DNA of 64,000 nt from Candidatus Kaiserbacteria bacterium (GCA_016182485.1 JACPGH010000005.1:64305-128304), one strand, 5' to 3'. Shown: positions 1,715 through 60,358, counted from the stretch's first letter. A program made the numbers and translations. The notes: generated from the sequence alone by a model not told the origin.

Positions 1715-1727
1715 GAAATTAGTTGGT

Positions 1728-1822
1728 TAGGCGCTAGGCTCTAGGCGCTAGCAAAATACATTATTAAAAGTGCACCTTCTCATGCTAACACGCAGCTAGA
1801 GCCTAAAGCCTAGTGCCTGGGC
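1728..1822. repeat. two CTAG-rich heptamer tandem clusters (CTAGGCK)n
   Basis: ggcgctaggctctaggcgctagc at 1728-1752 and gctagagcctaaagcctagtgcctgg at 1794-1822. The same family recurs at seven more sites. Confidence 0.6.
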
Positions 1823-17809: not shown

Positions 17810-17991
17810 ACCGGAAGGGTAGCAAATGGGGCAATTCTGTCAAGTTATTTAGACACATATATACTCTGAAATTGCTATTTAGAATAAGACTTTTCTATCA
17901 GTAATCACTCTATGACAGGATTATTTTTTACTGTCAACTGCAAGACGAATACACTTAATTCAGACCGATCCTTGAAAGGAGGTGAACGCCC

Positions 17992-18063
17992 ATGCCGACG
18001 GCCAACTCGGGTTCCGCCGGGAAGAGCCGCAAGGCTCTGCCGGCCAAGCGCCCCTCCAAGTAG
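17992..18063 (+). CDS. 23-aa peptide MPTANSGSAGKSRKALPAKRPSK (candidate precursor peptide 1)
   Basis: SD GGAGGTG 8 nt upstream. Near-identical to the peptide 100 bp downstream. Confidence 0.5.
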   Translation: MPTANSGSAGKSRKALPAKRPSK

Positions 18064-18166
18064 GGCGCGGGGAACCTGTCAGCTCCGGGCTGACCGAGTG
18101 CGCGCGCCACTTGGGAACAGAAGTGCGCGCAGCATTCAAAACACCAAGAGAAAGGAGGTGATGTCC

Positions 18167-18238
18167 ATGGCCACAGCCAACGCCGGTTCCGCTGGCAAGA
18201 GCCGCAAGGCTCTGCCGGCAAGACGCCCCTCCAAGTAG
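18167..18238 (+). CDS. 23-aa peptide MATANAGSAGKSRKALPARRPSK (candidate precursor peptide 2)
   Basis: SD AAAGGAGGTG upstream. The alternative start at 18161 gives MSMATAN.... Confidence 0.5.
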   Translation: MATANAGSAGKSRKALPARRPSK

Positions 18239-18244
18239 GAGACG

Positions 18245-21881: not shown

Positions 21882-22550
21882 ATGAGAGAAACCGAACGTG
21901 TCGAGATTCTCATCGACGCAGGGAACTTCTATCATCTTGCGCTTAAGAAACTTGGCGTCGCGGAAATAGATTTCGATTATGAGGCCTTTGTTTCTTTTCT
22001 CATGAACGGCCGCACGCTCGTCCCTGAAGGGAAGCGATTATATGTCGGTACCGTACGCGAAAAAGAAGGCGATTTGAGGACGAAGAACGCGATGGCCGAA
22101 CAGCGCCGGTTCTTGTCAGTGCTCCTATCGGCGAAATGGCAGATAAAGACCAGCAAACTCCGATCGCGCATTGAAGAGATAGCTGTTGATTCGCGCATGC
22201 AGGAGTACAAAACTCTGACTGCCGCGGGTGTTCAAACGATTCACGTTGAACGCATGCGCGAAAAGGGTATCGATGTGAAAATCGCGACTGATCTCATCGT
22301 CGGAGCAGTAGACGATAAATATGATACTGCAATTGTCATCAGTTCAGATACCGATTTAGTTCCCGCCATTGACTGGGTTCGGATGCGAAAGAAGAAACGC
22401 GCCGAGTACGTAGGATTTTCAATTCCCGATGCTCGCGGCAACGCCTATGCGTCGAAGCCGACGTTTGCGCTCATCGCGCGGACGGATGTCCAGCGCATCC
22501 TAGTTGAATCGGACATACGGCGTTTTATTAAGCAAAAACTCATGCCATAG
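21882..22550 (+). CDS. NYN-domain (LabA/DUF88-like) protein, second copy
   Basis: IDAGNFYH...GIDVKIATDLIVGAVDDKYDTAIVISSDTDLVPAI. Confidence 0.65.
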   Translation: MRETERVEILIDAGNFYHLALKKLGVAEIDFDYEAFVSFLMNGRTLVPEGKRLYVGTVREKEGDLRTKNAMAEQRRFLSVLLSAKWQIKTSKLRSRIEEIAVDSRMQEYKTLTAAGVQTIHVERMREKGIDVKIATDLIVGAVDDKYDTAIVISSDTDLVPAIDWVRMRKKKRAEYVGFSIPDARGNAYASKPTFALIARTDVQRILVESDIRRFIKQKLMP

Positions 22551-22557
22551 CGCAACG

Positions 22558-22607
22558 CTTCGCCCGCTGTTCTGAGAACCGATCGAGTTCGGGATTCAGA
22601 AGAGCGG
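22558..22607. repeat. diverged repeat A copy immediately after the NYN gene stop
   Basis: cttcgcccgctgttctgagaaccgatcgagttcgggattcagaagagcgg. Same orientation as 21684-21733. Confidence 0.6.
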
Positions 22608-22824
22608 AACACGAAACAGAAGAGCCGCGACAGGGTCGCGGCTCTTGAAGCAAGCATCGCCTGGCATGCCGGCGGGATGAGGGGATTCCTAGTCGACCCC
22701 GGAGAAGAACTGCCAGATGGGCGCACAGCGCGCCCGCCAGGTATAGAGGTGAATGACCGCGTCAACCAACGCTGCGCATGCGACGAGTGCGAGCAGAGCA
22801 TGGAGCCTCGTCATAGCCGCCTAC

Positions 22825-23595: not shown

Positions 23596-24313
23596 GCGGA
23601 TAGTATACAAAATGAAACAAAATGTGTTCGATGCTACAGTACGTGTACGAACAATGCCAAGCAACGAGGGGGCTCCAATGGAGAAGGCCGAGCAGATGGA
23701 AACGCACGAGGAGAAGGCGGTGCGTTTATCACGCGCTCTTGAGGAGTCTAGAGACCCGGAGTTTATAAAGCAAAACCTGCCGGAACTCTTCGACATTTTG
23801 GAGAACGAGCTCGGCTTATCGCTACTCAAGGGGAAAGAGGTAAATGCGATATATAGGCGCTTCATTGAAGGCGGGTGCCTCGTGCGTGTGGAAAAATTCA
23901 CACGCATTATGGAAGCGCTCGAATTGAACCATGGCTTCAAGGTCGGCGAGCGCATGGGCGACTCGCACTATGCCAATGCCGTCATCCCGGATCCGGAGGG
24001 CATTAGGCTCGCCTTCGCGGAGGGACAAATGTCCGGGTCGCTCCGAGTCGCCATGGGACTCGGAAAGTCACTGGTCGGATTTCAAACAGCAGCTGACCAT
24101 ATAACCGTATCCGCCGTCGATTTCGCCGAGGAGGATCCGCGCGACACTGGCAAGCGCGGGCATCTCTGCCGGCATGTTGAGGGAGAAATAATGGGGGAGG
24201 ATATTCGCGGCGTCGTGATGCGCATACCTCGCGCGGTGGTTAGCGAGTCTCTACTGACAGACGAGGAGTCAGAAGGAAACGGGCAATTCGTATTTCGCGG
24301 ATTTTTGACTTGA
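23588..24313 (+). CDS. hypothetical protein
   Basis: ORF only. The likely start is the internal MPSNEG at 23654. Confidence 0.35.
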   Translation: MFMRIVYKMKQNVFDATVRVRTMPSNEGAPMEKAEQMETHEEKAVRLSRALEESRDPEFIKQNLPELFDILENELGLSLLKGKEVNAIYRRFIEGGCLVRVEKFTRIMEALELNHGFKVGERMGDSHYANAVIPDPEGIRLAFAEGQMSGSLRVAMGLGKSLVGFQTAADHITVSAVDFAEEDPRDTGKRGHLCRHVEGEIMGEDIRGVVMRIPRAVVSESLLTDEESEGNGQFVFRGFLT

Positions 24314-24332
24314 ATTGCGAACCGCGAATAGC

Positions 24333-24359
24333 GCGGCCCCGACGCACCGTCGGGGCCGC
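24333..24359. terminator. GC-rich hairpin terminator, followed by a CTAG-repeat cluster at 24363-24392
   Basis: gcggccccgacgcaccgtcggggccgc. Confidence 0.5.
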
Positions 24360-24386
24360 GTTGGCTAGAGCCTAGCACCTAACTGG

Positions 24387-24662
24387 CTAGCGGATCGCCT
24401 CCTTGAGCGCCTTCGCCGGGCGGAACTTCGCCGTGCGGGTCGCCGCGATGCGGATCGTCTCGCCGGTGCGCGGGTTACGACCCTCCCGCGCCGGGCGCGC
24501 CTTGGTCGCGAAGATGCCGAGTCCGGCGACCGATACCTCGTCGCCAGATTTCAGACTGGAAACGATACAATCTATCACCGTCTCAACGGCGCGCTCCGCG
24601 TCGGCCTTCGTCGAGCCGAGCGTGCTGTGCACCTTGTCAATTATGTCTGCTTTGTTGGCCAT
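24387..24662 (-). CDS. hup: HU-family DNA-binding protein
   Basis: MANKADIIDKV...GLGIFATKARPAREGRNPRTGE.I.I typical of HU/IHF. Confidence 0.85.
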   Translation of the reverse strand: MANKADIIDKVHSTLGSTKADAERAVETVIDCIVSSLKSGDEVSVAGLGIFATKARPAREGRNPRTGETIRIAATRTAKFRPAKALKEAIR

Positions 24663-24823
24663 GGGAATGTTTAATCGGGTAATGAAATAAGTATAGAATG
24701 CGCCGCTTTTCGCGCAATACCCTTGCCAACTCCCAGTGGATAGCGCGGAATAAAAAACAACAGGCTCCCTCCGCTTCGCCGTTCCGCGAAGCTTCAGGGA
24801 GCCGAGGACGTGCCGGGGCGGAA

Positions 24824-25114
24824 TCATTCTTTTTTCCTGTCCGGCACGCATGTTTCTCCGTCAAAACGGCTGTACTCCGGGTAATTCACCCGGCAGTACT
24901 CGTTCAGAAGCTCGTCCACTAGGACACGAGCCTCCTTGGAGCTGACCTTTTCTGGTAAACGGCGAGCTCGCTCGCACTCTACCAGACGGCCCGCAAGTTC
25001 CGGATGCTCCGAGCAGACAGTGCGGGGCGCCGCTAGGGCGAACGATACCGGCCTTGTGAGCGTTCCTGCGAGCAACAGCACGCAAAGGGATATTGGCAGG
25101 CGGTGGCGGTACAT
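24824..25114 (-). CDS. hypothetical secreted small protein (signal peptide, Cys-rich)
   Basis: MYRHRLPISLCVLLLAGTLT signal-like N-terminus. Confidence 0.3.
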   Translation of the reverse strand: MYRHRLPISLCVLLLAGTLTRPVSFALAAPRTVCSEHPELAGRLVECERARRLPEKVSSKEARVLVDELLNEYCRVNYPEYSRFDGETCVPDRKKE

Positions 25115-27790: not shown

Positions 27791-28309
27791 TTATTTGCCC
27801 GATTTCTCTTGATACATATTGTGCGCCCGGTCAAAAGCCGCTTCCGCTTTGCCGCCGAAGCCGGTCACTTCAACAACCTTGTTCTGAAGATTTTTGTACG
27901 TCTTGTAGAAATGCTCCACTTCTTTGAGCGTATGCTTATTGACGTCCTTTAGGTCCTGCACCTCCTTCCATCGAGGGTCATCAACCGGCACCCCGATAAC
28001 CTTATCGTCGGCATCGCCGCCGTCGATCATGTGCATGATGGCGACCGGTCGGACGCGCACCAAGATTCCCGGCGCAAGCGGATAAGTCGTAAGTACGATG
28101 ACGTCGAGCGCGTCGCCGTCATCCCACAATGTTTGCGGCACGAAGCCGTAATCGACGGGGAATTGCTGGGTAGTATAAGAAACTCGATCTAGCGCGATGA
28201 GGCCCGTTTTCTTGTCAATTTCGTACTTATTCATCGAGCCTTTCGGGATCTCGACGATAACGCTCATTTCTTCTTTCGTGCCCGGCTCAATATCGTGCAG
28301 TAAATTCAT
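27791..28309 (-). CDS. ppa: inorganic pyrophosphatase
   Basis: Family I PPase motifs (DYGFVPQT..DGDALDVIVL). Confidence 0.9.
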   Translation of the reverse strand: MNLLHDIEPGTKEEMSVIVEIPKGSMNKYEIDKKTGLIALDRVSYTTQQFPVDYGFVPQTLWDDGDALDVIVLTTYPLAPGILVRVRPVAIMHMIDGGDADDKVIGVPVDDPRWKEVQDLKDVNKHTLKEVEHFYKTYKNLQNKVVEVTGFGGKAEAAFDRAHNMYQEKSGK

Positions 28310-28319
28310 ATGAAAATAA

Positions 28320-29262
28320 AATAGCAGACTGAGGCGCTAGGCGCTACTCGCCTCGCTGAAGTCCGGCGAAGCGGGAGCTTTAGCAGTAATGCAAATCCTC
28401 AATCAACCAACGAGACCCTCGCGGGCTGAACAGAGGAGCAAACGCACGGAACCATCCGGCGTTTGTCCAACCGATTAACCAAAGAACAAAAAGAACTGCT
28501 TGCCCGTCGCGCGAAGCGCGAGCAGGGCTGGAGCCCATTTACGGCTGGGCTCCCCGCACCGGTGTCGCCGCTTAACGGCAGGCGACACGTGCCGTCCACT
28601 TGATTTCTATTTCGTCAGCCGGCAAGTGAATAAACCCGGCTCCTGACTCCCCGCGGATAAGCGGGAAGATACCCTTAGCCCGGCCTGCCCTGAACTTGTC
28701 GAAGGGCAAAGGGCGTCGGGGTATGTCGCCGTCGCATGCGCTTCGTCCCTAGCGTGTTCGCGCTATAGGCGGGACGTCGCCGCACGCGCGGGCGGATGTG
28801 CACTGCAACGGGCTCGCTTAGAGCCCGCTCCACGGATTTTTCATCCGTGCACCTCCTTTCTCGCCGATTTAACCCTCGGGCGCGGGGTTCGCCGCGACGC
28901 GAACTACTTCTTCGCGCGCCTTCAGGGAATCGCTCACCCTTCTTCGCTTTTGAGCTACGAAGGGCGCAGTGCGATCCCTCGTACCGTACCGATCCATACA
29001 ACAAGTAAAGAGGTTTAACCTCTTTACTTCGTCGCGGATGCAGTCCGGCAACGAGGAACAACATTGCAGTAGCCGCTCCGCCCGCTGGCGGACGCGACGA
29101 TTGTTCTGCCTTGTCCCTGGCTACCTATGGGTTCTGTCAGAGAACCACTGGCTTGCTAACACCCTAGCATACTCTGTCTACTTTGTCAAGTAGTTTTTGA
29201 GACCGCAACATGCGCTACTTGAGATAAGCAGCAAATAAGCCAAATTATCGGGCAGGCAGCAG
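28320..29262. other. about 0.95 kb GC-rich ORF-poor region; candidate large structured ncRNA(s), unidentified
   Basis: No credible ORF; the track ORFs here are Arg-rich low-complexity. Many stable hairpins. Contains hairpin C (29003-29029) and is bounded by a CTAG repeat at 29263-29300. Confidence 0.25.
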
Positions 29263-29301
29263 GAGCTAGATTCTAGCAGTCACCTAGCGCCTAGAGCCTA
29301 G

Positions 29302-30711
29302 TTAATCGTCCTTCGCTTTGTCGCGGTCTTCTTCTTTGTCGGCGACGGTCTCGTCGCTCGCGGGAAGCTCGGTCAGTTCTTCTTCGGCAGGCAGGGCGGT
29401 TATCTCGGACGAGTCGTCAGTGATTATTTCAGAGGCTTCAGTAGGCATCGCGCCCATTGCTACAGCGGGCTCTTCGCCGGTACTTCCTGCGTCAGTACTT
29501 CCTGTGTCAGCATCTTCGACACCTTCGGTACTTACGGCACTTCCTGCGTCAGCACTGACAGCTTCGCCGCCGCCAGCCGAAACGATATCGATGTTCCAGC
29601 CGGTCAGCTTCGCGGCCAGCCGCACATTCTGCCCGCCGCGGCCGATGGCGGGCGACTGCTCGTCTTCGGTGACCGTAACCTTTGCGCGGTGGTCGGCCTC
29701 GTCTAGCGCGACCTCGAGCGGCTTGGCGGGGGAGAGCGCTTGCCGCACGAATTCGCGCGCGTCGGAATTCCACTCGATGATGTCGATGCGCTCGCCGCCA
29801 AGCTCGCTCATGACTATCGAGACGCGCACGCCGCGCTGGCCGACGAGCGACCCGACCGGGTCGACGTGCGTATCGAGCGAGACGAGGGCGATCTTCGTGC
29901 GGCTGCCAGGCTCGCGCGCGATAGCTTTCACTTCGATCGCGCCCGAAGCCAATTCCGGCGCTTCAAGTTCGAAAAGTTTAATGACAAATTTCGGATGCGC
30001 GCGCGAGAGCCGCAGATAGACGCCGCGGAAACCTTCGTCCACCGAGTACAAATAAGCACGGATGCGCTCGCCGATACGGTAGCGCTCGCCCGGGATCTGT
30101 TCTTCATAGGGGATAATACCGGTCGTGCGCCCGAGATCCACGAAAATCGCCCCGCGCTCCATGCGTTGGACGATCCCGGATACGATCTGACCCTTCTTCT
30201 CGCTGAATTCTTCCATCATTGATAGCTTTTCAGCCTCGCGGACTTTCTGGATGACGACCTGCTTGGCCGTCTGCGCCGCAATGCGGCCGAAATCGTCCTG
30301 CGGCTCTAGCGGGAAGATGATCTCTTCGCCCACTTGCGCGCCGCGCTTGATGAGCCGCGCGTCGGCGAGCAGGATGTGCTTCTCGGGGTCGAAGCGCGGC
30401 AATTCGCCCTCCTGCAGTTCTTCCTCATGCTCGTAACGGCTGGCTTCGAGTTTCTGGTTTCTGGTTTCTGGTTCACCGGCTTCCGAAGCAAATCGCACGG
30501 TCGTTTCGTCGACGACGGTCTTCACCTGCTCGAAGGCGATAGTGCCCGTGTTGAGATCGAGCTTGGCGCGCACTACCTGCCCGCGCTTGCCGTATTCGCG
30601 CTTATAGGCAGTCGCCATCGCCGCCTCGATAGCTTCTATCATCGTTTCTTTGCTGATGCCCCGGTCCTCGAACTCGCCGAGTACTGCGTGGATTGTTTTT
30701 AGGTCAATCAT
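29302..30711 (-). CDS. nusA: transcription termination/antitermination factor NusA
   Basis: N-terminal domain, S1 and KH domains, acidic C-terminal tail. Confidence 0.9.
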
Positions 30712-30823: not shown

Positions 30824-31012
30824 TCATTCGAATAGCTGCGCATGTGACCCTGTATCTACAAACACAATGATGCGTCCGCCGCGTATCTCATACATCAGCA
30901 ATAAATCGTCTTTAATATGGCATTCGCGATAGCCAGCAAATTCACCCGAAAGAGCATGGTCTCGATACTTTTCCGGCAGAATCTTACCGGAACACAGGTA
31001 TTCTGTTACCAA
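30824..31012 (-). CDS. YafQ/RelE-family toxin (annotated from a TTG; homology extends about 25 codons upstream into the antitoxin 3' end with no canonical start)
   Basis: ILPEKYRDHALSGEFAGYRECHIKDDLLLMY matches the YafQ core. The upstream in-frame FNRSFRKLKK matches the YafQ N-terminus. Confidence 0.5.
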   Translation of the reverse strand: MVTEYLCSGKILPEKYRDHALSGEFAGYRECHIKDDLLLMYEIRGGRIIVFVDTGSHAQLFE

Positions 31013-31056
31013 CTTAAAGTCATATGCGAGGTTGGAGGTAAGCCTTCCAGATTTTT

Positions 31057-31338
31057 TCAGTTTCCGGAATGAGCGGTTGAAAATATGCCGAGATCCTTGA
31101 AAAGTTCTTTGGTGCTGGTGTACTTCTTACCGTTCTTGATAGCATCGGCGACCTCGCGGTCCCATTTTGCCCGCAATGCGGCAGGATTCTTGGTGGGCAT
31201 AAAGGGCAGGCCTTGCTCCGTCACCACCTGATTCAAGAAAAGCTTCACGCCACTAGATAAGTCCAGCCCAACTCCTTCGAGCGCCTTCTTGGCGGCCTTC
31301 TTGGTTTTTTCTTCAATTCTGACATTCAACGTAGTCAT
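31057..31338 (-). CDS. DinJ/RelB-family antitoxin
   Basis: LNVRIEEKTKKAAKKALEGVGLDLSSGVKLFL..V..QGLPF matches the DinJ pattern. Confidence 0.65.
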   Translation of the reverse strand: MTTLNVRIEEKTKKAAKKALEGVGLDLSSGVKLFLNQVVTEQGLPFMPTKNPAALRAKWDREVADAIKNGKKYTSTKELFKDLGIFSTAHSGN

Positions 31339-32424: not shown

Positions 32425-32614
32425 ACTGCTGGTTGGGAACCGGCAGTCGTAAAAGAGGCGGTACAGCCCATAAGAGAAGAGATCGAGAAGTTGCGCCCGC
32501 TCGCTTCAAAGCTGAAGGCGCTCGCTACAGCGCTGTAAGACAGACAGGCCAAGAGCCTGACTTGCGTAAACGTGCGGAAAACGCGCCGGAGCGAAGCTCC
32601 GGCGCGTTATACTT

Positions 32615-34381
32615 TTGACAATGCAAGTATCCGAAGCCGAGCTCAAGGAGTTTATTCTCGACTCGGGGCTCGTGCCTAAAAAAGAAATTGACGCCGCCGC
32701 CGAAGAGGCGGCGAAGCGCGAGCAATCGCTCGGCGATATCCTCGTCTCCCGCGGCTCGCTTTCTGAAGACGCCCTGCGGCGCATCCAGGCGTACGTGCTC
32801 GGCATCCCGTTCGTGAACCTGAAGGACCATCGCGTGCCCGTAGAAGTGCTCGCGCTCATTCCCGAGCCCATCGCGCGCACGCATAACATCATCGCGTACA
32901 AGAAAGACGAGACCGCCCAGTCTCTTGAGGTCGCCATGCTCGACGTTGCCGATCTCGCCGCGATCGACTCGGTCCGCAAGAAGACCGGCCTTAAGATATT
33001 GCCGAGGCTCACCGACACCGAGAGCATCAAGGCCGCGCTCTTGCAGTATCAGAAATCGCTCAAGGACGAGTTCGGCGACATCATCTCGGCCGAAGCGGGA
33101 AAAATCCGCCATATCACGGAAGGCGGAAAGGATCTTTCGGGCGACGACTTGAAAAAGATGGCGGAGGATCTGCCTATCGTGCGCATCGTGGATACGCTCC
33201 TGCGGCACGCGATAGTCCAGGACGCTTCCGACATCCATATAGAACCGATGGAAACCGAGGTATTGGTCCGTTACCGCATCGACGGCATCCTGCACGATGC
33301 CATGACCCTGCCGAAGATCGCCGCCGCCGGCATCGTCGCGCGCATCAAAGTGCTCTCCAATCTGAAGCTCGACGAGAAGCGGCTGCCGCAGGACGGCCGC
33401 TTCAAAATGGAGACCGAATCGGACCGCGTTTCCTTCCGCGTCTCGATCCTCCCGACCTTCTTCGGCGAGAAGACGGTGATGCGTCTGTTGCGCGAGACTG
33501 GCGAAGGCTTCACGCTCGAGATGCTCGGGCTCCACGGCGAGACGCTCGAGAAGATCCATCAGGCGCTCAAGCAGACGACCGGCATCATCCTAATCTCCGG
33601 CCCGACCGGTTCCGGTAAGACGACGACCCTATATACGATGCTCGACATCCTGAACCAGCCGGGAGTCAACATCTCGACCATCGAGGATCCGATCGAGTAT
33701 CAGATGAAGCGCGTGAACCAGTCGCAAGTGAGCCCCCAGATCGGCTTTACCTTCGCGAACGGCCTGCGCTCTCTCGTGCGTCAGGACCCGGACATAATAA
33801 TGGTCGGCGAGATCCGCGACGGCGAGACGGCCTCGCTCGCCATCAACGCCGCGCTTACGGGCCACCTCGTGCTTTCTACGATCCACACTAACAGCGCCTC
33901 TGGCGCAATTCCGCGGCTCATCGATATGGGAGTGGAGCCGTTCCTTCTCGTTTCCACTATCCGCGTGATCGTCGGCCAGCGCCTCGTGCGCCGGCTCTGC
34001 GAAACCAAGGAGACCTACGCGATGGACGCGGCGATGCGCGCTAAGATCGCGCGCGAAGAAGAATTCGCGAGCGCGTTCCGGGCTCTGACCGAAGAGAAGC
34101 TCGTGAAAGCGGGGGCAACGCTTGACTCGCTTCAGTTCTACCGCCCGACAGCAAGCCCTGACTGCGCAGACGGGTATAAGAGCCGCATCGGGATCCATGA
34201 GGTGCTCGCCGTCTCGCCCGCGATCCGCGACATCATCCTGCACTCCGGCACCTCCGACGCGCTCGAGGCGCAGGCGAAGAAGGAAGGCATGCTGACGATG
34301 ATCGAGGACGGCCTCTACAAAGCCGCGCGCGGCATCACTTCGATCGAGGAAGTGCTGCGCACCGTAACCGAACAAACATGA
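32615..34381 (+). CDS. pilB: type IV pilus assembly ATPase PilB (GspE family)
   Basis: N-terminal GSPII_E_N domain, Walker A (GPTGSGKTT) and the GspE ATPase core. Confidence 0.85.
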   Translation: MTMQVSEAELKEFILDSGLVPKKEIDAAAEEAAKREQSLGDILVSRGSLSEDALRRIQAYVLGIPFVNLKDHRVPVEVLALIPEPIARTHNIIAYKKDETAQSLEVAMLDVADLAAIDSVRKKTGLKILPRLTDTESIKAALLQYQKSLKDEFGDIISAEAGKIRHITEGGKDLSGDDLKKMAEDLPIVRIVDTLLRHAIVQDASDIHIEPMETEVLVRYRIDGILHDAMTLPKIAAAGIVARIKVLSNLKLDEKRLPQDGRFKMETESDRVSFRVSILPTFFGEKTVMRLLRETGEGFTLEMLGLHGETLEKIHQALKQTTGIILISGPTGSGKTTTLYTMLDILNQPGVNISTIEDPIEYQMKRVNQSQVSPQIGFTFANGLRSLVRQDPDIIMVGEIRDGETASLAINAALTGHLVLSTIHTNSASGAIPRLIDMGVEPFLLVSTIRVIVGQRLVRRLCETKETYAMDAAMRAKIAREEEFASAFRALTEEKLVKAGATLDSLQFYRPTASPDCADGYKSRIGIHEVLAVSPAIRDIILHSGTSDALEAQAKKEGMLTMIEDGLYKAARGITSIEEVLRTVTEQT

Positions 34382-34499
34382 TCCCGTTAGAAATCGCGGA
34401 CGCCATTTTATGAAACGCTATACTATAATTGTCGTATGACTAGTTTCTTTAGCAAAAAATGCGGAGTTGAGAGATGGTCCGCGTCCTATTTCTAACGGG

Positions 34500-35717
34500 A
34501 TGAAATTCCGCATCACAGTACGAAAAGAAGGCGTTCCCGATGAAGTGCGCGCCGTCGAGGCGGCCTCCCGCTTTGAGGTGTACGATCACGTGAGGAGCGA
34601 GGGCGGTTTCGTCGTCTCTATCTCGCCGCGCTATAGCTGGTCCTGGAGAGAACTTTCCCGCTTCAATTTTACGATCGGCACGGGCATACGGCGCATCGAG
34701 GTCGTGCGTACCGCCAAGAATCTGGCGGCTATGCTTTCGGCCGGCCTTTCCATCTCGCGCGCGCTCAGCGTCATCGAGCGGCAATCGGGCAATAAGCGGC
34801 TGAAGGCAGTCGCCGAAGGCCTGGCGGAATCAGTAAAAAAGGGTTCTTCATTCCATGAAGCGCTGGCCGGATACCCGCGCGTGTTCTCGCCGCTTTTCAT
34901 TGCGATGGCCCGGGCAGGCGAAGAGTCGGGGACCTTGGCCGATTCGCTCAAGGTCATCGCGCTTCAAATGGAGCATTCCGAGGAGCTCGTGAAGAAGATA
35001 AAAGGAGCGATGATTTATCCGATAATCGTCATATCTGCGGTTATCACCGTCGGCATCCTGATGCTCATCTACGTAGTGCCGACTCTCACAAACACGTTCA
35101 CTTCGCTCGGGGTCGAGGTGCCGCTCGCGACCCGCGTTATTATCGCGTTGTCGAATTTCCTCGTCGGGAATCTCGCCCTCGCGCTTTTTGCGCTCGCAGC
35201 CCTTATTACGGGACTTATCGCGTTCCTGAGATCGAAGCCGGGAAGAACGACCGTGCTCGCCGTAGCGCTCCATCTGCCAGTCATCAAGGACCTCGTACGC
35301 GAAACGTACACGGCGCGCGCGGCCCGGACGCTCTCTTCGCTACTGTCCGCCGGCGTTCCGGTGCTCGAGGCTTTATCCATAACGAAGGAGGTGGTGCATG
35401 CCTCCGCGTTCGCCCGCGTCGTTGAGCTCGCCGAAGAGCACGTGCGGAAAGGGGAACCGCTCTCCGCTTCTTTCAGCCAGCATACGAAGCTCTATCCCAT
35501 TCTCATGAGCGATATGCTCGCCGTAGGCGAAGAGACTGGGAAGGTAGCCGAGATGCTGAAGCAGATCGCCGAATTCTACGAAGAAGACGTCGCGGGAAAA
35601 ACAAAGGACCTCTCGGCGATCATCGAGCCGCTCCTCATGCTCTTTATCGGCGCGTTCGTCGGCATCTTCGCCGTCTCGATGATCGCGCCGATCTACCAGA
35701 TCTCATCGGCGATATAA
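34500..35717 (+). CDS. pilC: type IV pilus inner-membrane platform protein PilC (GspF family)
   Basis: Two GspF repeats and three TM regions. Confidence 0.8.
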   Translation: MKFRITVRKEGVPDEVRAVEAASRFEVYDHVRSEGGFVVSISPRYSWSWRELSRFNFTIGTGIRRIEVVRTAKNLAAMLSAGLSISRALSVIERQSGNKRLKAVAEGLAESVKKGSSFHEALAGYPRVFSPLFIAMARAGEESGTLADSLKVIALQMEHSEELVKKIKGAMIYPIIVISAVITVGILMLIYVVPTLTNTFTSLGVEVPLATRVIIALSNFLVGNLALALFALAALITGLIAFLRSKPGRTTVLAVALHLPVIKDLVRETYTARAARTLSSLLSAGVPVLEALSITKEVVHASAFARVVELAEEHVRKGEPLSASFSQHTKLYPILMSDMLAVGEETGKVAEMLKQIAEFYEEDVAGKTKDLSAIIEPLLMLFIGAFVGIFAVSMIAPIYQISSAI

Positions 35718-38107: not shown

Positions 38108-38193
38108 CTATTAGGCTCTAGGCTCTAGGCGCTAGCAGCCCCAGATCAGGAATAAGCTAGAGCCTAGCGCCTGTCCGAGTGCCTAGAGCCTGC
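38101..38193. repeat. two CTAG-heptamer clusters
   Basis: gcgctagctattaggctctaggctctaggcgctagc ... gctagagcctagcgcctgtccgagtgcctagagcc. Confidence 0.6.
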
Positions 38194-46974: not shown

Positions 46975-47170
46975 CGCCCCAGATTTAACTTCTCGGCCGA
47001 TCGGTGATAATCTTTATAATAGAATCCGCAGTGAAAGGAGGTGGCGACATGCGAGTGGGCGCCTATGGGCGGATACCGATGCCCGTAACGCCGTCGAACG
47101 AGCGCGTCGACCAGCTGTGGCTGCGCTGGTTGCGCGAGAAGCTGCGCCGACGGAAACGAGCGCAAGCTGC

Positions 47171-47201
47171 CAAGACGGCCCGCCCCTAGGCGGGCCGTCT
47201 A
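47171..47201. terminator. hairpin terminator
   Basis: gacggcccgcccctaggcgggccgtc. Confidence 0.45.
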
Positions 47202-49013: not shown

Positions 49014-49642
49014 TCATGCCTACGAGAGCCCCCGGAGCCACCCAGCAGTTCGTCCCGGTCAAAGAGATACGGAACGGCGTTGTCGTTCTTAAAGACGGAG
49101 GCTATCGCGGCATCCTTATCTGTTCCTCCATAAACTTCGGCCTGAAGTCGGCCGAGGAGCAGCACGCGATCACGGTAGGCTTCCAGAACTTCCTCAACAC
49201 GCTCGATTTCTCGATCCAGATAGTCGTGAATTCGCGCAAGATGGACCTCCGCCCATACCTCTCGCTTCTTGAGCAGAAAGGCGCCGATCAAAAAAGCGAA
49301 CTGATGCGGATACAGCTGCGCGAATACATGGCGTTCATCCGCTCCTTCACCGAACAGGCGAATATCATGACGAAATCTTTTTATATCGTCGTGCCCTATG
49401 CGCCGCATGTCTCCGCTACGAGCGCCCTCAATATTCTAGGACGTAAAGGTCCCAAAAACACGGCCGAGACGACCTTCGAAGAGGATCGCGCACAGCTGGA
49501 ACAGAGACTCGCGCTCGTCGCGGGCGGCCTCGGCGGCACCGGCGTGCGCGCCGTCCCGCTCGGGACGGAAGAGGTCATCGAACTTCTATATCGATCCTTC
49601 AATCCGGGGGAGTTGGAAAATCCAATAAGGCTAGATAGTTAG
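49010..49642 (+). CDS. VirB4/TraC-like N-terminal domain protein (probably the 5' part of the split VirB4 gene)
   Basis: VPVKEIRNGVVVLKDGGYRGILICSSINFGLKSAEEQ resembles the VirB4 N-terminal region. Overlaps the PrgI-like stop. Confidence 0.45.
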   Translation: MIMPTRAPGATQQFVPVKEIRNGVVVLKDGGYRGILICSSINFGLKSAEEQHAITVGFQNFLNTLDFSIQIVVNSRKMDLRPYLSLLEQKGADQKSELMRIQLREYMAFIRSFTEQANIMTKSFYIVVPYAPHVSATSALNILGRKGPKNTAETTFEEDRAQLEQRLALVAGGLGGTGVRAVPLGTEEVIELLYRSFNPGELENPIRLDS

Positions 49643-49668
49643 GCTCTAGGCGCTAGGCTCTAGCTCAA
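49641..49668. repeat. CTAG-heptamer tandem (left flank of cassette)
   Basis: ttaggctctaggcgctaggctctagctc. Confidence 0.6.
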
Positions 49669-49678
49669 TACAAAAACC

Positions 49679-50137
49679 ATGAAGATTTCGCACGACGAAC
49701 TTGCTAAGTTTCTGGATGCAGCAAACAAGTCGACATACGCAAATAAAGACGCGCCGAAATCAGCGTCTTTGAGACCGTCCTCGGAGGACTACCATTTCGA
49801 GCTGGGGGACCTTGCCTATCATGACACCTACTTTGGTGCGCGCGATTTTATCGGGGAAGAAGTTGTGTACAAAATCTCGAAACCAGTGTGGGGTATGAAT
49901 TATTACGGCTATTTATTGAATCCCGACATATCTGCTGATGAAGTCTACACGGTTCTTCGTTCGGCATTATACAGCGATACATTACCAGTACGAGGACCTC
50001 GAGAGCACATTCGAGGAACTAGTAAGTATGCGAATCAAGTTGATGGAACGCTAAATAGATTTTCGGGCGAAGAAAAGATCTATTTTGATACGGAATTGGT
50101 GTACTGCTGTTGGTATCACGGCGGAAGTATTGAATGA
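49679..50137 (+). CDS. hypothetical protein (DUF5680-like?)
   Basis: ORF only; family assignment tentative. Confidence 0.3.
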   Translation: MKISHDELAKFLDAANKSTYANKDAPKSASLRPSSEDYHFELGDLAYHDTYFGARDFIGEEVVYKISKPVWGMNYYGYLLNPDISADEVYTVLRSALYSDTLPVRGPREHIRGTSKYANQVDGTLNRFSGEEKIYFDTELVYCCWYHGGSIE

Positions 50138-50138
50138 T

Positions 50139-50510
50139 ATGCAAACATTTCGGGATCTCGTCGTTTGGCAGAAGGCGGTCGAACTTGCTAAACAAATATA
50201 TATCCTGACACATCAGTTTCCCACGGAAGAGCGATTCGGTCTGGCTTCGCAAATGCAACGAGCCGCCGTCTCGATTCCCTCGAACATCGCTGAAGGAAAG
50301 CTGCGCGGGTCGTCGAAAGAATTTATACACTTCCTGCGTGTTGCCTTCGGGTCTGGTGGCGAACTTGAGACACAGATAGAAATCGCAAAGCGCTTACCGA
50401 GAACGGCAGCATTGAATTTCGCGTCGGTAGAAGCACTTCTCGATGAAATAATGCGGATGCTGAATGCTATGATTTCTGGTAGCGGGCATAAGCTAGCGCC
50501 TAGAGCCTAG
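50139..50510 (+). CDS. four-helix-bundle protein (family typically found in 23S rRNA intervening sequences)
   Basis: FRDLVVWQKA.EL...IY.LT..FP..E.FGL.SQ..RAAVSIPSNIAEG signature. Confidence 0.6.
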   Translation: MQTFRDLVVWQKAVELAKQIYILTHQFPTEERFGLASQMQRAAVSIPSNIAEGKLRGSSKEFIHFLRVAFGSGGELETQIEIAKRLPRTAALNFASVEALLDEIMRMLNAMISGSGHKLAPRA

Positions 50511-50518
50511 CGCCTGTA
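50491..50518. repeat. CTAG-heptamer tandem (right flank of cassette, inverted relative to the left flank)
   Basis: aagctagcgcctagagcctagcgcctg. Confidence 0.6.
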
Positions 50519-60329: not shown

Positions 60330-60358
60330 GAAGTAAAGAGGTTTGACCTCTTTACTTC
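60330..60358. terminator. perfect 13 bp-stem hairpin C (GAAGTAAAGAGGTTTGACCTCTTTACTTC) between convergent maf-like and PBP genes
   Basis: Same hairpin at 29003-29029. Confidence 0.5.

What the first reader, a model, noticed from the sequence alone, without database searches (positions are those of the whole stretch)
28320..29300. About 0.95 kb GC-rich region with no credible ORF between ppa and nusA: candidate large structured RNA
Gene density elsewhere is very high, yet this stretch has only short, Arg-rich low-complexity ORFs. It has many stable stem-loops, e.g. gcaaacgc...gcgtttg, ggctggagccc...gggctcc and gtcagccgg...ccggctcctgac. It also contains the perfect palindrome C at 29003-29029 and ends in a CTAG repeat.

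I looked for tmRNA hallmarks (a T-arm GGTTCGA, or an ...ALAA tag ORF) and for RNase P P4 motifs (AGUCCGGGCUCC / ACCCGGCUUA). I found only partial resemblances: GGCTGGGCTCC at about 28543 and AAACCCGGCTCC at about 28632.

The region may encode an unusual ssrA or rnpB variant, an OLE/ROOL/raiA-like large ncRNA, or a pseudogenised gene.
Basis: seen in the sequence. Interest (0 to 1): 0.55.

Follow-up and report, generated by a model that had tools for sequence, protein, structure and literature searches.

The report
Orphan ORF-less insertion in CTAG hairpin
The 1-kb gene-free stretch between nusA and ppa is real and folds unusually well, but it is a one-lineage insertion inside a repeated intergenic hairpin of a Kaiserbacteria (CPR) genome, not a recognisable or conserved RNA gene, so its function stays unproven.

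Summary
Window 28310-29301 (992 nt) is the largest ORF-free gap in the 64-kb window. It shows no codon periodicity, has 11-16 stops per frame, and folds far better than shuffled sequence (z about -9 to -12 on both strands).

No Rfam family matches (tmRNA, RNase P, OLE, ROOL, GOLLD, raiA, introns), even at E<=10. No protein homolog exists in any frame.

In about 40 relatives, ppa follows nusA directly, most often after about 31 bp. The stretch is therefore an insertion. It was seen only in this organism and in a 99.9 % identical Logan contig.

Its two ends are the arms of a CTAG-heptad inverted repeat. That repeat recurs in the window as two short "empty" hairpins, and as a pair enclosing a DUF5680 + 23S-rRNA-IVS-protein cassette. 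That cassette is itself an insertion between genes that abut in relatives. Relatives L012 and L034 carry a short hairpin at the same nusA-ppa site.

Best reading: an inverted-repeat-bounded, ORF-less passenger segment (MITE/MIC-like, or nested in a REP-like hairpin), passively co-transcribed. An orphan functional RNA cannot be excluded, because there are no homologs and so no covariation test. Interest is low to moderate.

The parts
29302..30711 (-). nusA, the upstream flank. Its native stop codon TAA (29304-29302) directly abuts the repeat arm.
   Evidence: NusA_N, S1 and KH domains. The C-terminal ...[12 protein letters not shown] motif is conserved in relatives.
29273..29301 (-). 5' arm of the CTAG-heptad inverted repeat (CTAGGCTCTAGGCGCTAGGTGACTGCTAG). 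It carries stop codons in all three frames.
   Evidence: (pairs I2 and I6). It aligns with the left arm of the short hairpins in L012 and L034.
28347..29272 (-). About 925-nt ORF-less, hairpin-rich cargo with no detectable homolog.
29161..29189 (-). Promoter-like site: TTGACA, 17 nt, TAGGGT. The -35 box is perfect and the -10 box is weak. Inferred only.
   Evidence: Read. The scanner missed it because only 3 of 6 positions match in the -10 box. Relative L028 uses TTGACA-17-TATACT at the same junction.
29003..29029 (.). A 27-nt palindrome (13+1+13), a terminator-like hairpin. The same palindrome sits between convergent genes at 60331-60357.
28818..28861 (-). A 12-nt perfect Shine-Dalgarno sequence AGAAAGGAGGTG (28861-28850), then 5 nt, then ATG (28844) and an 8-codon ORF MKNPWSGL* (stop at 28820-28818).
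   Evidence: Only four Shine-Dalgarno matches of 11 nt or more occur in 64 kb. The other three precede small ORFs.
28322..28346 (-). 3' arm of the inverted repeat (TAGCGCCTAGCGCCTCAGTCTGCTA). It pairs with the 5' arm in both predicted folds.
28310..28323 (-). ppa-proximal TATTTT -10-like box, 8 nt before the ATG. It is homologous to TGCTAWTTT in L012 and L034, so ppa keeps its own promoter region.
   Evidence: inference.
27791..28309 (-). ppa (inorganic pyrophosphatase), the downstream flank.
49639..50515 (+). Sister element. The same CTAG-heptad arms (49639-49664 and 50492-50515) enclose DUF5680 and 23S-rRNA-IVS-protein genes. It is inserted between a TraC-like gene and VirB4, which abut in relatives.
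1727..1820 (.). 'Empty' CTAG-heptad hairpin with a 44-nt loop.
38111..38190 (.). 'Empty' CTAG-heptad hairpin with a 19-nt loop.

Best explanation
The stretch is a lineage-specific insertion of about 925 nt of ORF-less, hairpin-rich DNA. It is bracketed by the two arms of a CTAG-heptad inverted repeat. That repeat belongs to a REP/MITE-like intergenic family found in this genome and in other CPR genomes.

**Shown**
- Relatives have nusA and ppa adjacent.
- Two relatives have only the short hairpin at this junction.
- The same arms elsewhere in the window form short hairpins, or bracket a two-gene cassette that is also an insertion.

**Inferred**
- Either the arms plus cargo behave as a non-autonomous, inverted-repeat-bounded passenger element (MITE/MIC-like, moved in trans), or the cargo landed in the loop of a pre-existing hairpin.
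- The CTAG heptads supply stop codons in all frames on both strands, so insertion at gene junctions is tolerated.
- ppa keeps its own -10 region.
- The insert is transcribed passively from nusA on the minus strand, at least up to the terminator-like palindrome at 29029-29003.
- Its strong folding reflects its make-up of many Watson-Crick hairpin modules rather than one selected RNA architecture.
For: **It is an insertion.**
- In 37 relatives' loci where ppa was found downstream of nusA, ppa follows nusA. The spacer is 31 bp in the typical ones printed.
- Three further close relatives show 12-91 nt.
- An independent Logan assembly has the same 992 nt with no differences, so it is not an assembly artefact.

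**The ends are hairpin arms.**
- The arms are 15 nt long and 93 % complementary, 938 nt apart.
- They align with the two arms of the 87-88-bp hairpins of L012 and L034, and the cargo replaces the loop.

**The arms belong to a repeat family.**
- 18 matches to the heptad pattern occur in the window against 0.8 expected.
- CTAG is otherwise depleted (96 observed against 243 expected) and clusters only at these arms.
- The same 26-mer arm occurs in 18 unrelated metagenome contigs.

**There is a sister case.** The arms at 49639 and 50515 enclose DUF5680 and an IVS protein. The flanking TraC-like and VirB4 genes are only 0-2 nt apart in three of the four relative contigs checked (L094, L095, L097).

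**It is not a gene.**

**The structure is mostly Watson-Crick and symmetric.** Without G-U pairs the two strands fold to -407 and -405 kcal/mol (z -9.8 and -8.3).

**Hairpin loops do not look like those of a complex RNA.** 0 of 19 hairpin loops on the minus strand and 1 of 20 on the plus strand are GNRA or UNCG tetraloops.

**The junction is insertion-prone.** L028 and L035 carry unrelated inserts there.
Against: - No second copy of the cargo was found anywhere: not in the window, in 97 fetched loci, in phages or plasmids, or in JGI metagenomes using six back-translated patterns. Mobility of the cargo itself is therefore unproven.
- No transposase with such terminal repeats was identified, and no clear target-site duplication was seen.
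- At 977 nt the unit is larger than typical bacterial MITEs.
- A streamlined CPR genome keeping 1 kb of useless DNA is unexpected.
- G-U pairs favour the minus strand (35 against 15). The plus strand gains less from G-U pairs than its shuffles do (z +3.0), while the minus strand does not. This hints at RNA-level constraint.
- A perfect 12-nt Shine-Dalgarno sequence plus ATG inside the cargo looks functional.
Confidence: 0.55

Rival explanations
1. An orphan functional structured RNA (or RNAs) on the minus strand. Two versions are possible.
- A roughly 0.9-kb RNA released from the nusA-ppa transcript by cleavage of the roughly 20-bp stem formed by the repeat arms, in the manner of an RNase III-processed rRNA intervening sequence.
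- A smaller unit, such as a roughly 150-nt sRNA running from the promoter-like site at 29189-29161 to the palindrome at 29029-29003, plus a leader with a strong Shine-Dalgarno sequence and a mini-ORF.
For: - The fold z is -10.4 to -10.6 on the minus strand.
- The sub-domain 28990-29156 has z -6.2 with 200 shuffles, and 28347-29002 has z -5.5.
- The minus-strand MFE is 44 kcal/mol lower, with 35 G-U pairs against 15.
- The G-U contribution is asymmetric beyond what composition explains.
- The arms close the whole fold.
- The sister cassette encodes a 23S rRNA intervening-sequence protein.
- The region has persisted in a gene-dense genome.
Against: - There are no homologs, so there is no covariation, and there is no Rfam match.
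- The region is absent from all relatives.
- Hairpin loops lack GNRA and UNCG tetraloops.
- Most of the folding signal is strand-symmetric Watson-Crick pairing.
- An internal terminator-like palindrome would separate the two arms into different transcripts.
- The promoter-like site has a poor -10 box.
Confidence: 0.2
2. A decayed small-gene cassette. Like the inserts of L028 (a 217-aa ORF) and L035 (a 97-aa ORF) at the same junction, it once carried one or more protein genes. Only the promoter-like site, the Shine-Dalgarno sequence plus ATG, and the terminator survive.
For: - The same junction hosts gene-bearing inserts of 523 and 980 bp in relatives.
- The sister element with the same repeat arms carries two genes of similar total length.
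- A perfect Shine-Dalgarno sequence plus ATG is followed by a premature stop.
- A terminator-like palindrome is present.
Against: - No homolog exists in any frame, in Pfam or among 5.8 billion protein clusters.
- There is no similarity to the DUF5680/IVS-protein cassette.
- There is no residual codon periodicity, and every frame has 11-16 stops.
- Decay of a coding sequence does not create a fold z of -10.
- A very old pseudogene would not keep a perfect 12-nt Shine-Dalgarno sequence.
Confidence: 0.15
3. A divergent member of a known RNA class: tmRNA, RNase P RNA, 6S, OLE, ROOL, GOLLD, raiA, HEARO, or a group I or II intron.
For: Only short string resemblances (GGCTGGGCTCC, AAACCCGGCTCC) that are visible.
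Against: - No family reaches gathering score in the window apart from three tRNAs.
- At E<=10 there are only two unrelated noise hits.
- ARAGORN finds no tmRNA.
- The same pipeline does find a relative's tmRNA, in L084 at 120 bits, so such genes in this clade are detectable.
- The region is missing from relatives, which an essential RNA would not be.
Confidence: 0.02

Closest known systems
MITEs and transcribed intergenic inverted-repeat elements (Neisseria Correia/NEMIS, ERIC, RUP); comparison from my own knowledge
   Same: - Terminal inverted repeats.
- Multiple copies at gene junctions.
- No transposase.
- Absent from orthologous sites in relatives.
- Co-transcribed with flanking genes and able to fold into long hairpins.
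   Different: - The unit is 977 nt, whereas these elements are typically 100-300 nt.
- The interior is unique and single-copy.
- The arms are built of CTAGGCN heptads.
- No target-site duplication or parent insertion sequence was identified.
Mobile insertion cassettes (MICs, e.g. MIC231 of Bacillus cereus); comparison from my own knowledge
   Same: IS-type inverted repeats bracket passenger DNA without a transposase. The sister element at 49639-50515 fits this well, with two passenger genes.
   Different: The element studied here has no passenger ORF. The transposase family that would mobilise it is unknown.
REP / REPIN / BIME elements
   Same: Short imperfect palindromic extragenic repeats occur as inverted doublets forming hairpins. 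They are lineage-specific in sequence and occupy intergenic sites.
   Different: REPINs do not normally carry kilobase-scale loops. No RAYT gene was seen. The heptad periodicity with CTAG is unusual.
rRNA intervening sequences (IVS) excised by RNase III; comparison from my own knowledge
   Same: An insertion in a hairpin loop is bounded by a long complementary stem. The sister cassette encodes the PF05635 '23S rRNA-intervening sequence protein'.
   Different: It is located in an mRNA intergenic spacer, not in rRNA. Excision is untested, and this copy has no IVS-protein gene.
Large ornate bacterial ncRNAs (OLE, GOLLD, ROOL, raiA)
   Same: Size of about 0.6-1 kb, no ORF, and many stem-loops.
   Different: - No covariance-model match.
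- No conservation in any relative.
- No GNRA-rich loops.
- It has the character of an insertion.

Membership tests
tmRNA (ssrA) | A tRNA-like domain with a T-arm, plus a tag-peptide reading frame. | tested here: not met
   ARAGORN finds no tmRNA in the window. RF00023 gives no hit even at E<=10. The same model finds the tmRNA of a relative in L084 at 120 bits.
RNase P RNA (bacterial type A or B) | A conserved P4 pseudoknot and core helices, as scored by RF00010 and RF00011. | tested here: not met
   No hit at the gathering score or at E<=10.
OLE / ROOL / GOLLD / raiA / HEARO large ncRNAs | A match to the family covariance model. | tested here: not met
   cmscan against all 4227 Rfam 15 families returns only M23 (20 bits against 41 needed) and Glutamine-II (15 bits against 33 needed).
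Group I / group II introns | A catalytic core (P3-P9, or domain V/VI) detected by RF00028, RF00029 or the D1-D4 models. | tested here: not met
   No hit at E<=10. The element does not interrupt a gene.
Conserved structured ncRNA (any) | Homologs with compensatory base changes supporting the helices. | tested here: inconclusive
   No homolog was found at syntenic sites, in fetched loci, in phages or plasmids, or in JGI metagenomes. The only other copy is identical.
Pseudogene | Translated similarity to an intact protein family. | tested here: not met
   Six-frame Pfam search found only one sub-threshold hit (Hydrophob_seed, E 0.019, 15.7 bits against a 23.4-bit cut-off). Six frames against 5.8 billion protein clusters gave nothing at E<=0.1.
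Pseudogene | Residual codon-position compositional periodicity. | tested here: not met
   The GC frame-plot spread is 0.15 or less across 28300-28990, against 0.3-0.5 in ppa and nusA.
MITE / IR-bounded non-autonomous element | Terminal inverted repeats shared with other copies in the genome. | tested here: met
   Arms at 29273-29301 and 28322-28346. The same heptad arms occur at 1727, 38111, 49639 and 50492.
MITE / IR-bounded non-autonomous element | Presence/absence polymorphism at orthologous sites. | tested here: met
   It is absent from the nusA-ppa junction of relatives. The sister element is absent from TraC-VirB4 junctions.
MITE / IR-bounded non-autonomous element | Small size (less than about 0.5 kb) and multicopy interior. 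| tested here: not met
   The unit is 977 nt. Apart from one palindrome, its interior has no other copy in the window.
MITE / IR-bounded non-autonomous element | A target-site duplication and a cognate transposase. | tested here: inconclusive
   No convincing duplication was seen on reading the ends. No transposase was searched for genome-wide, because only 64 kb is available.
rRNA-IVS-like excised insert | RNase III cleavage of the bounding stem, releasing the insert. | not testable with these tools
   The arms are predicted to pair over about 18-20 bp. No expression data are available.

The most novel reading that the evidence does not exclude
The CTAG-heptad hairpins of Kaiserbacteria/Paceibacteria may be a previously undescribed insertion platform: hairpins or terminal repeats that carry all-frame stop codons and accept or carry cargo at gene junctions. 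In that reading, this cargo is an orphan RNA of about 0.9 kb on the minus strand, excised from the nusA-ppa transcript at the stem formed by the repeat arms. It would be an intervening-sequence-like element living in an mRNA operon rather than in rRNA.
Probability: 0.12. Interest if true: 0.6.

Novelty: new variant of a known kind. Interest (0 to 1): 0.3.

Why it matters
If it is only a passenger insertion, the result is a caution for genome scans. A long ORF-free stretch with a very negative folding z-score is not by itself an RNA gene, and checking syntenic sites in relatives settles this quickly.

The by-product may be of more use. A CTAG-heptad inverted-repeat family sits at gene junctions in CPR genomes, supplies stop codons in every frame, and in two of four paired copies in this window brackets lineage-specific cargo. 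One of those cargoes includes a 23S-rRNA-IVS-protein gene. I found no description of this family in four full-text literature searches. It could help explain how small cassettes spread within streamlined CPR operons, and how rRNA intervening-sequence-type elements move.

Tried and rejected
**Known RNA families.** Rfam at the gathering score over the whole window, Rfam at E<=10 on the region and ARAGORN found no known RNA.

**Pseudogene.**
- Six-frame Pfam gave only one sub-threshold hit (Hydrophob_seed, E 0.019).
- Six frames concatenated against the 5.8-billion-cluster protein database gave nothing.

**Homologs of the cargo.**
- blastn and nhmmer against 48 relatives' loci found only the repeat arm in L012.
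- blastn 'distant' against phages and plasmids found nothing.
- Using the spurious 129-aa ORF as a pseudo-protein to get six degenerate DNA patterns found nothing in the viral collection or the metagenome collection.
- An exact pattern covering the Shine-Dalgarno sequence and mini-ORF found nothing in viral contigs.

**The repeat arm elsewhere.**
- Viral contigs with the heptad pattern are plain tandem heptad arrays, not inverted pairs, and are irrelevant.
- The metagenome scan with the 26-mer arm gave 18 loci from other organisms. None has cargo similarity beyond a weak match to the palindrome in L085.

**Other ideas tested.**
- Decayed DUF5680/IVS-protein cassette: no similarity by tblastn or blastn.
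- Closer relatives by nusA (P0002, P0003, P0005): all have short spacers.
- Extending the genome beyond the window: only 5-kb Logan contigs were retrieved, and one look-up failed.
- A target-site duplication or terminal repeats of the cargo itself: reading the ends gave nothing convincing.
- Literature searches on Patescibacteria REP elements, CPR large ncRNAs, DUF5680 and Parcubacteria MITEs returned nothing relevant.
- My first whole-window z-score scan timed out and was redone on 22-36 kb.

Full report
**1. What is there**

Window 28310-29301 (992 nt) lies between the start of ppa (27791-28309, minus strand) and the stop of nusA (29302-30711, minus strand). The gene identities are confirmed by Pfam annotation of an almost identical contig.

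It is the longest stretch without a plausible gene in the 64-kb window. Each of the six frames has 11-16 stop codons. The codon-phase GC periodicity is pronounced in ppa and nusA (spread 0.3-0.5). It disappears between 28300 and 28990, where the spread is 0.15 or less.

The region is only marginally GC-richer than the window: 57.4 % against 56.0 %.

**2. Is the structure more than chance?**

Yes.
- The whole region folds to -471 kcal/mol on the minus strand and -427 on the plus strand. The z-scores are -10.4 and -12.0 with 20 shuffles, and -10.6 and -8.8 with 60 shuffles.
- In 150-nt windows the mean z is -3.3 (minus) and -2.6 (plus) inside the region, against about -0.5 for 175 windows outside it.
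- Most of the signal is plain Watson-Crick complementarity and is therefore strand-symmetric. With G-U pairs forbidden the two strands give -405 and -407 kcal/mol, with z -8.3 and -9.8.
- There is a modest asymmetry favouring the minus strand. It has 35 G-U pairs against 15. The plus strand gains significantly less from G-U pairs than its shuffles do (z +3.0), while the minus strand gains as much as its shuffles (z -0.6).
- Hairpin loops show no enrichment of GNRA or UNCG tetraloops: 0 of 19 on the minus strand and 1 of 20 on the plus strand.

**3. Known RNAs and pseudogenes are excluded as far as the tools reach**

- cmscan of the window against Rfam 15 finds only three tRNAs at the gathering score.
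- With permissive filters at E<=10 on 28200-29400 it finds two noise hits: M23 at 20 bits and Glutamine-II at 15 bits.
- ARAGORN finds four tRNAs and no tmRNA.
- The pipeline does detect a tmRNA in a related contig (L084, 120 bits). A failure to recognise RNAs of this kind in related organisms is therefore an unlikely explanation.
- Six-frame translations have only one sub-threshold Pfam hit (Hydrophob_seed, E 0.019, below its cut-off).
- They have no hit at E<=0.1 among 5.8 billion protein clusters.
- They show no similarity to the neighbouring DUF5680/IVS-protein cassette.

**4. The key comparative result: it is an insertion**

The organism is a CPR bacterium of the Kaiserbacteria/Paceibacterota group. 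Its nusA is at most 81 % identical to hundreds of MAG proteins.

In 37 of the 48 fetched relatives' loci, ppa is found downstream of nusA. The typical spacer printed is 31 bp and contains a TATAAT-like box about 7 nt before the ATG. Three additional closest relatives have 12-91 nt. The exceptions carry unrelated inserts. L028 has 980 bp with a 217-aa ORF, and L035 has 523 bp with a 97-aa repeat-containing ORF.

The only other occurrence of the 992 nt is a Logan contig from SRR12113424. It is 99.9 % identical over 9.4 kb and has no difference inside the gap. The sequence is therefore real but offers no covariation information.

**5. Anatomy of the ends**

Directly after the nusA stop comes CTAGGCTCTAGGCGCTAGGTGACTGCTAG (29301-29273, minus strand). 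Just before the ppa -10-like box comes TAGCGCCTAGCGCCTCAGTCTGCTA (28346-28322). These are inverted repeats, 15 nt long and 93 % complementary, 938 nt apart. They close the predicted fold on both strands.

Relatives L012 and L034 have, at the same junction, an 87-88-bp hairpin made of the same kind of CTAG heptads. The window's two ends align to the two arms of that hairpin, and the downstream TGCTAWTTT...ATG is shared. The cargo (about 28347-29272) therefore occupies the position of the hairpin loop.

**6. The arms belong to a repeat family**

- The heptad pattern occurs 18 times in the window against 0.8 expected.
- CTAG is otherwise depleted (96 against 243 expected) and clusters only at these arms.
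- Besides the nusA-ppa pair, the arms form two short hairpins (1727-1820 and 38111-38190) and one single arm (24364-24392).
- One further pair (49639-49664 and 50492-50515) encloses exactly two genes, DUF5680 and a PF05635 '23S rRNA-intervening sequence protein'.
- That pair is also an insertion. In the closest relatives checked (L094, L095, L097) the flanking TraC-like and VirB4 genes are 0-2 nt apart. A fourth contig, L096, has an annotated 80-nt gap, but the TraC-like reading frame appears to continue through it. Here the upstream gene ends in the first heptad of the arm.
- The exact 26-nt arm occurs in 18 metagenome contigs of otherwise unrelated sequence, mostly next to gene starts or ends, with or without a partner arm.
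- Because each heptad contains CTAG or TTAG, an arm supplies stop codons in all three frames on either strand. This is read directly from the sequence.

**7. Features inside the cargo (minus strand)**

These are read from the sequence, and their function is inferred.
- A promoter-like TTGACA-17-TAGGGT at 29189-29161.
- The palindrome at 29029-29003. Its only other copy lies between two convergent genes at 60331-60357. It therefore looks like a bidirectional terminator.
- A perfect 12-nt Shine-Dalgarno sequence, AGAAAGGAGGTG (28861-28850), followed after 5 nt by ATG and an 8-codon ORF. Only four Shine-Dalgarno matches of 11 nt or more exist in 64 kb, and the other three precede small ORFs of 23, 23 and 46 codons.
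- Sub-domains fold well on their own: 28990-29156 has z -6.2 and 28347-29002 has z -5.5.
- Apart from the arms and the palindrome, no 12-mer of the cargo recurs in the window beyond chance level.

**8. Searches for homologs of the cargo all failed**

- Relatives' loci.
- Phage and plasmid collections.
- Viral contigs.
- JGI metagenomes, using six degenerate patterns from the central 390 nt.
- The 18 arm-bearing metagenome loci.

Sensitivity is limited. Collection scans need near-exact words, and the genome collection could not be scanned a second time.

**9. Interpretation**

*Shown:* the stretch is a non-coding, strongly self-complementary insertion specific to this lineage. It is bracketed by arms of a repeated CTAG-heptad inverted repeat, and in this genome those arms also bracket another lineage-specific cassette.

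*Inferred, as the most likely reading (about 0.55):* it is an inverted-repeat-bounded passenger segment. Either it is a MITE/MIC-like unit mobilised in trans, or it is cargo that landed in the loop of a REP-like hairpin. It is tolerated because the arms terminate translation and ppa keeps its own promoter. It is transcribed passively from nusA.

*Rivals:*
- An orphan functional RNA on the minus strand (about 0.2). The G-U asymmetry, its persistence in a compact genome and the closing stem support this. The absence from every relative, the symmetric Watson-Crick signal, the loop composition and the internal terminator weaken it.
- A decayed small-gene cassette (about 0.15). The Shine-Dalgarno sequence plus ATG and the gene-bearing inserts at the same junction in relatives support this. 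The lack of any coding trace weakens it.
- A divergent known RNA family (at most 0.02).

**10. Verdict**

The interpretation as a tmRNA, RNase P RNA or OLE-like RNA, or as a pseudogene, is not supported. A 'large structured RNA' remains possible but is untestable without homologs or expression data.

The element is best filed as a new variant of the known kind 'IR-bounded non-autonomous insertion (MITE/MIC/REP-like)'. It is unusual for its kilobase-scale ORF-less structured interior and for its stop-codon-rich heptad arms. Interest is low to moderate (0.3). The repeat family and its cargo-bearing copies are the part that most deserves follow-up.

Noticed in passing
window 17974-18064 and 18149-18239 (+): Two tandem paralogous 23-codon ORFs (MPTANSGSAGKSRKALPAKRPSK* and MATANAGSAGKSRKALPARRPSK*). 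Each is preceded by a perfect 12-14-nt Shine-Dalgarno sequence, and the pair is followed by a terminator-like hairpin. They are probably unannotated small basic peptides.
   Followed up: partly
window 47033-47190 (+): A third small ORF (46 codons, Arg/Lys-rich C-terminus) behind an 11-nt Shine-Dalgarno sequence. In this window all Shine-Dalgarno sequences of 11 nt or more precede very small ORFs.
   Followed up: partly
window 49639-50515 (+): CTAG-heptad inverted repeats enclose a DUF5680 gene and a 23S-rRNA-intervening-sequence-protein (PF05635) gene. The unit is inserted between a TraC-like gene and VirB4 of a conserved PrgI-TraC-VirB4 operon, and these two genes are 0-2 nt apart in three relative contigs checked (L094, L095, L097). 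The last codons of the upstream gene are recoded (IRLDN* to IRLDS*) so that they read as heptads.
   Followed up: yes
window 1727-1820, 38111-38190, 24364-24392; loci L073-L090: CTAG-heptad arms form short intergenic hairpins or occur as single arms. The identical 26-mer arm is found in 18 metagenome contigs from other organisms. CTAG is otherwise 2.5-fold depleted in the window. I found no description of this repeat family in four literature searches.
   Followed up: partly
L001, L015, L029 (nusA-ppa spacers): Other relatives carry a different inverted-repeat family (CCCGTTAGAAAT...ATTTCTAACGGG) at the same junction, with loops of variable length (roughly 45-105 nt). L028 and L035 carry gene-bearing inserts there. 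The nusA-ppa junction is a recurrent insertion site.
   Followed up: partly
relatives' nusA-ppa spacers (e.g. L013, L005, L041): A TATAAT-like box lies only about 7 nt upstream of the ppa ATG, which suggests a leaderless ppa mRNA in this clade.
   Followed up: no
window 60331-60357: A second copy of the 27-nt palindrome AAGTAAAGAGGTTTGACCTCTTTACTT lies exactly between two convergent genes. It is probably a bidirectional terminator motif of this genome. A weaker match exists in L085.
   Followed up: partly
window 22526-22700, 24251-25000, 32501-32725, 34376-34525: 150-nt windows outside the finding with fold z below -5 on at least one strand. On reading, the ones at 22526 and 24740-24850 contain long GC-rich hairpins near gene ends. 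The others were not examined.
   Followed up: partly
window 30824-31338 (-): A RelB/YafQ-type toxin-antitoxin pair lies immediately upstream of nusA. The YafQ-like ORF matches only profile positions 29-88 of 88, so it may be truncated or mis-started.
   Followed up: no
window 27837 vs L049 8875-8880: The only indel between the window and the independent Logan assembly is a 6-nt (two-codon) difference inside ppa. There are also three SNPs elsewhere in the 9.4 kb.
   Followed up: no
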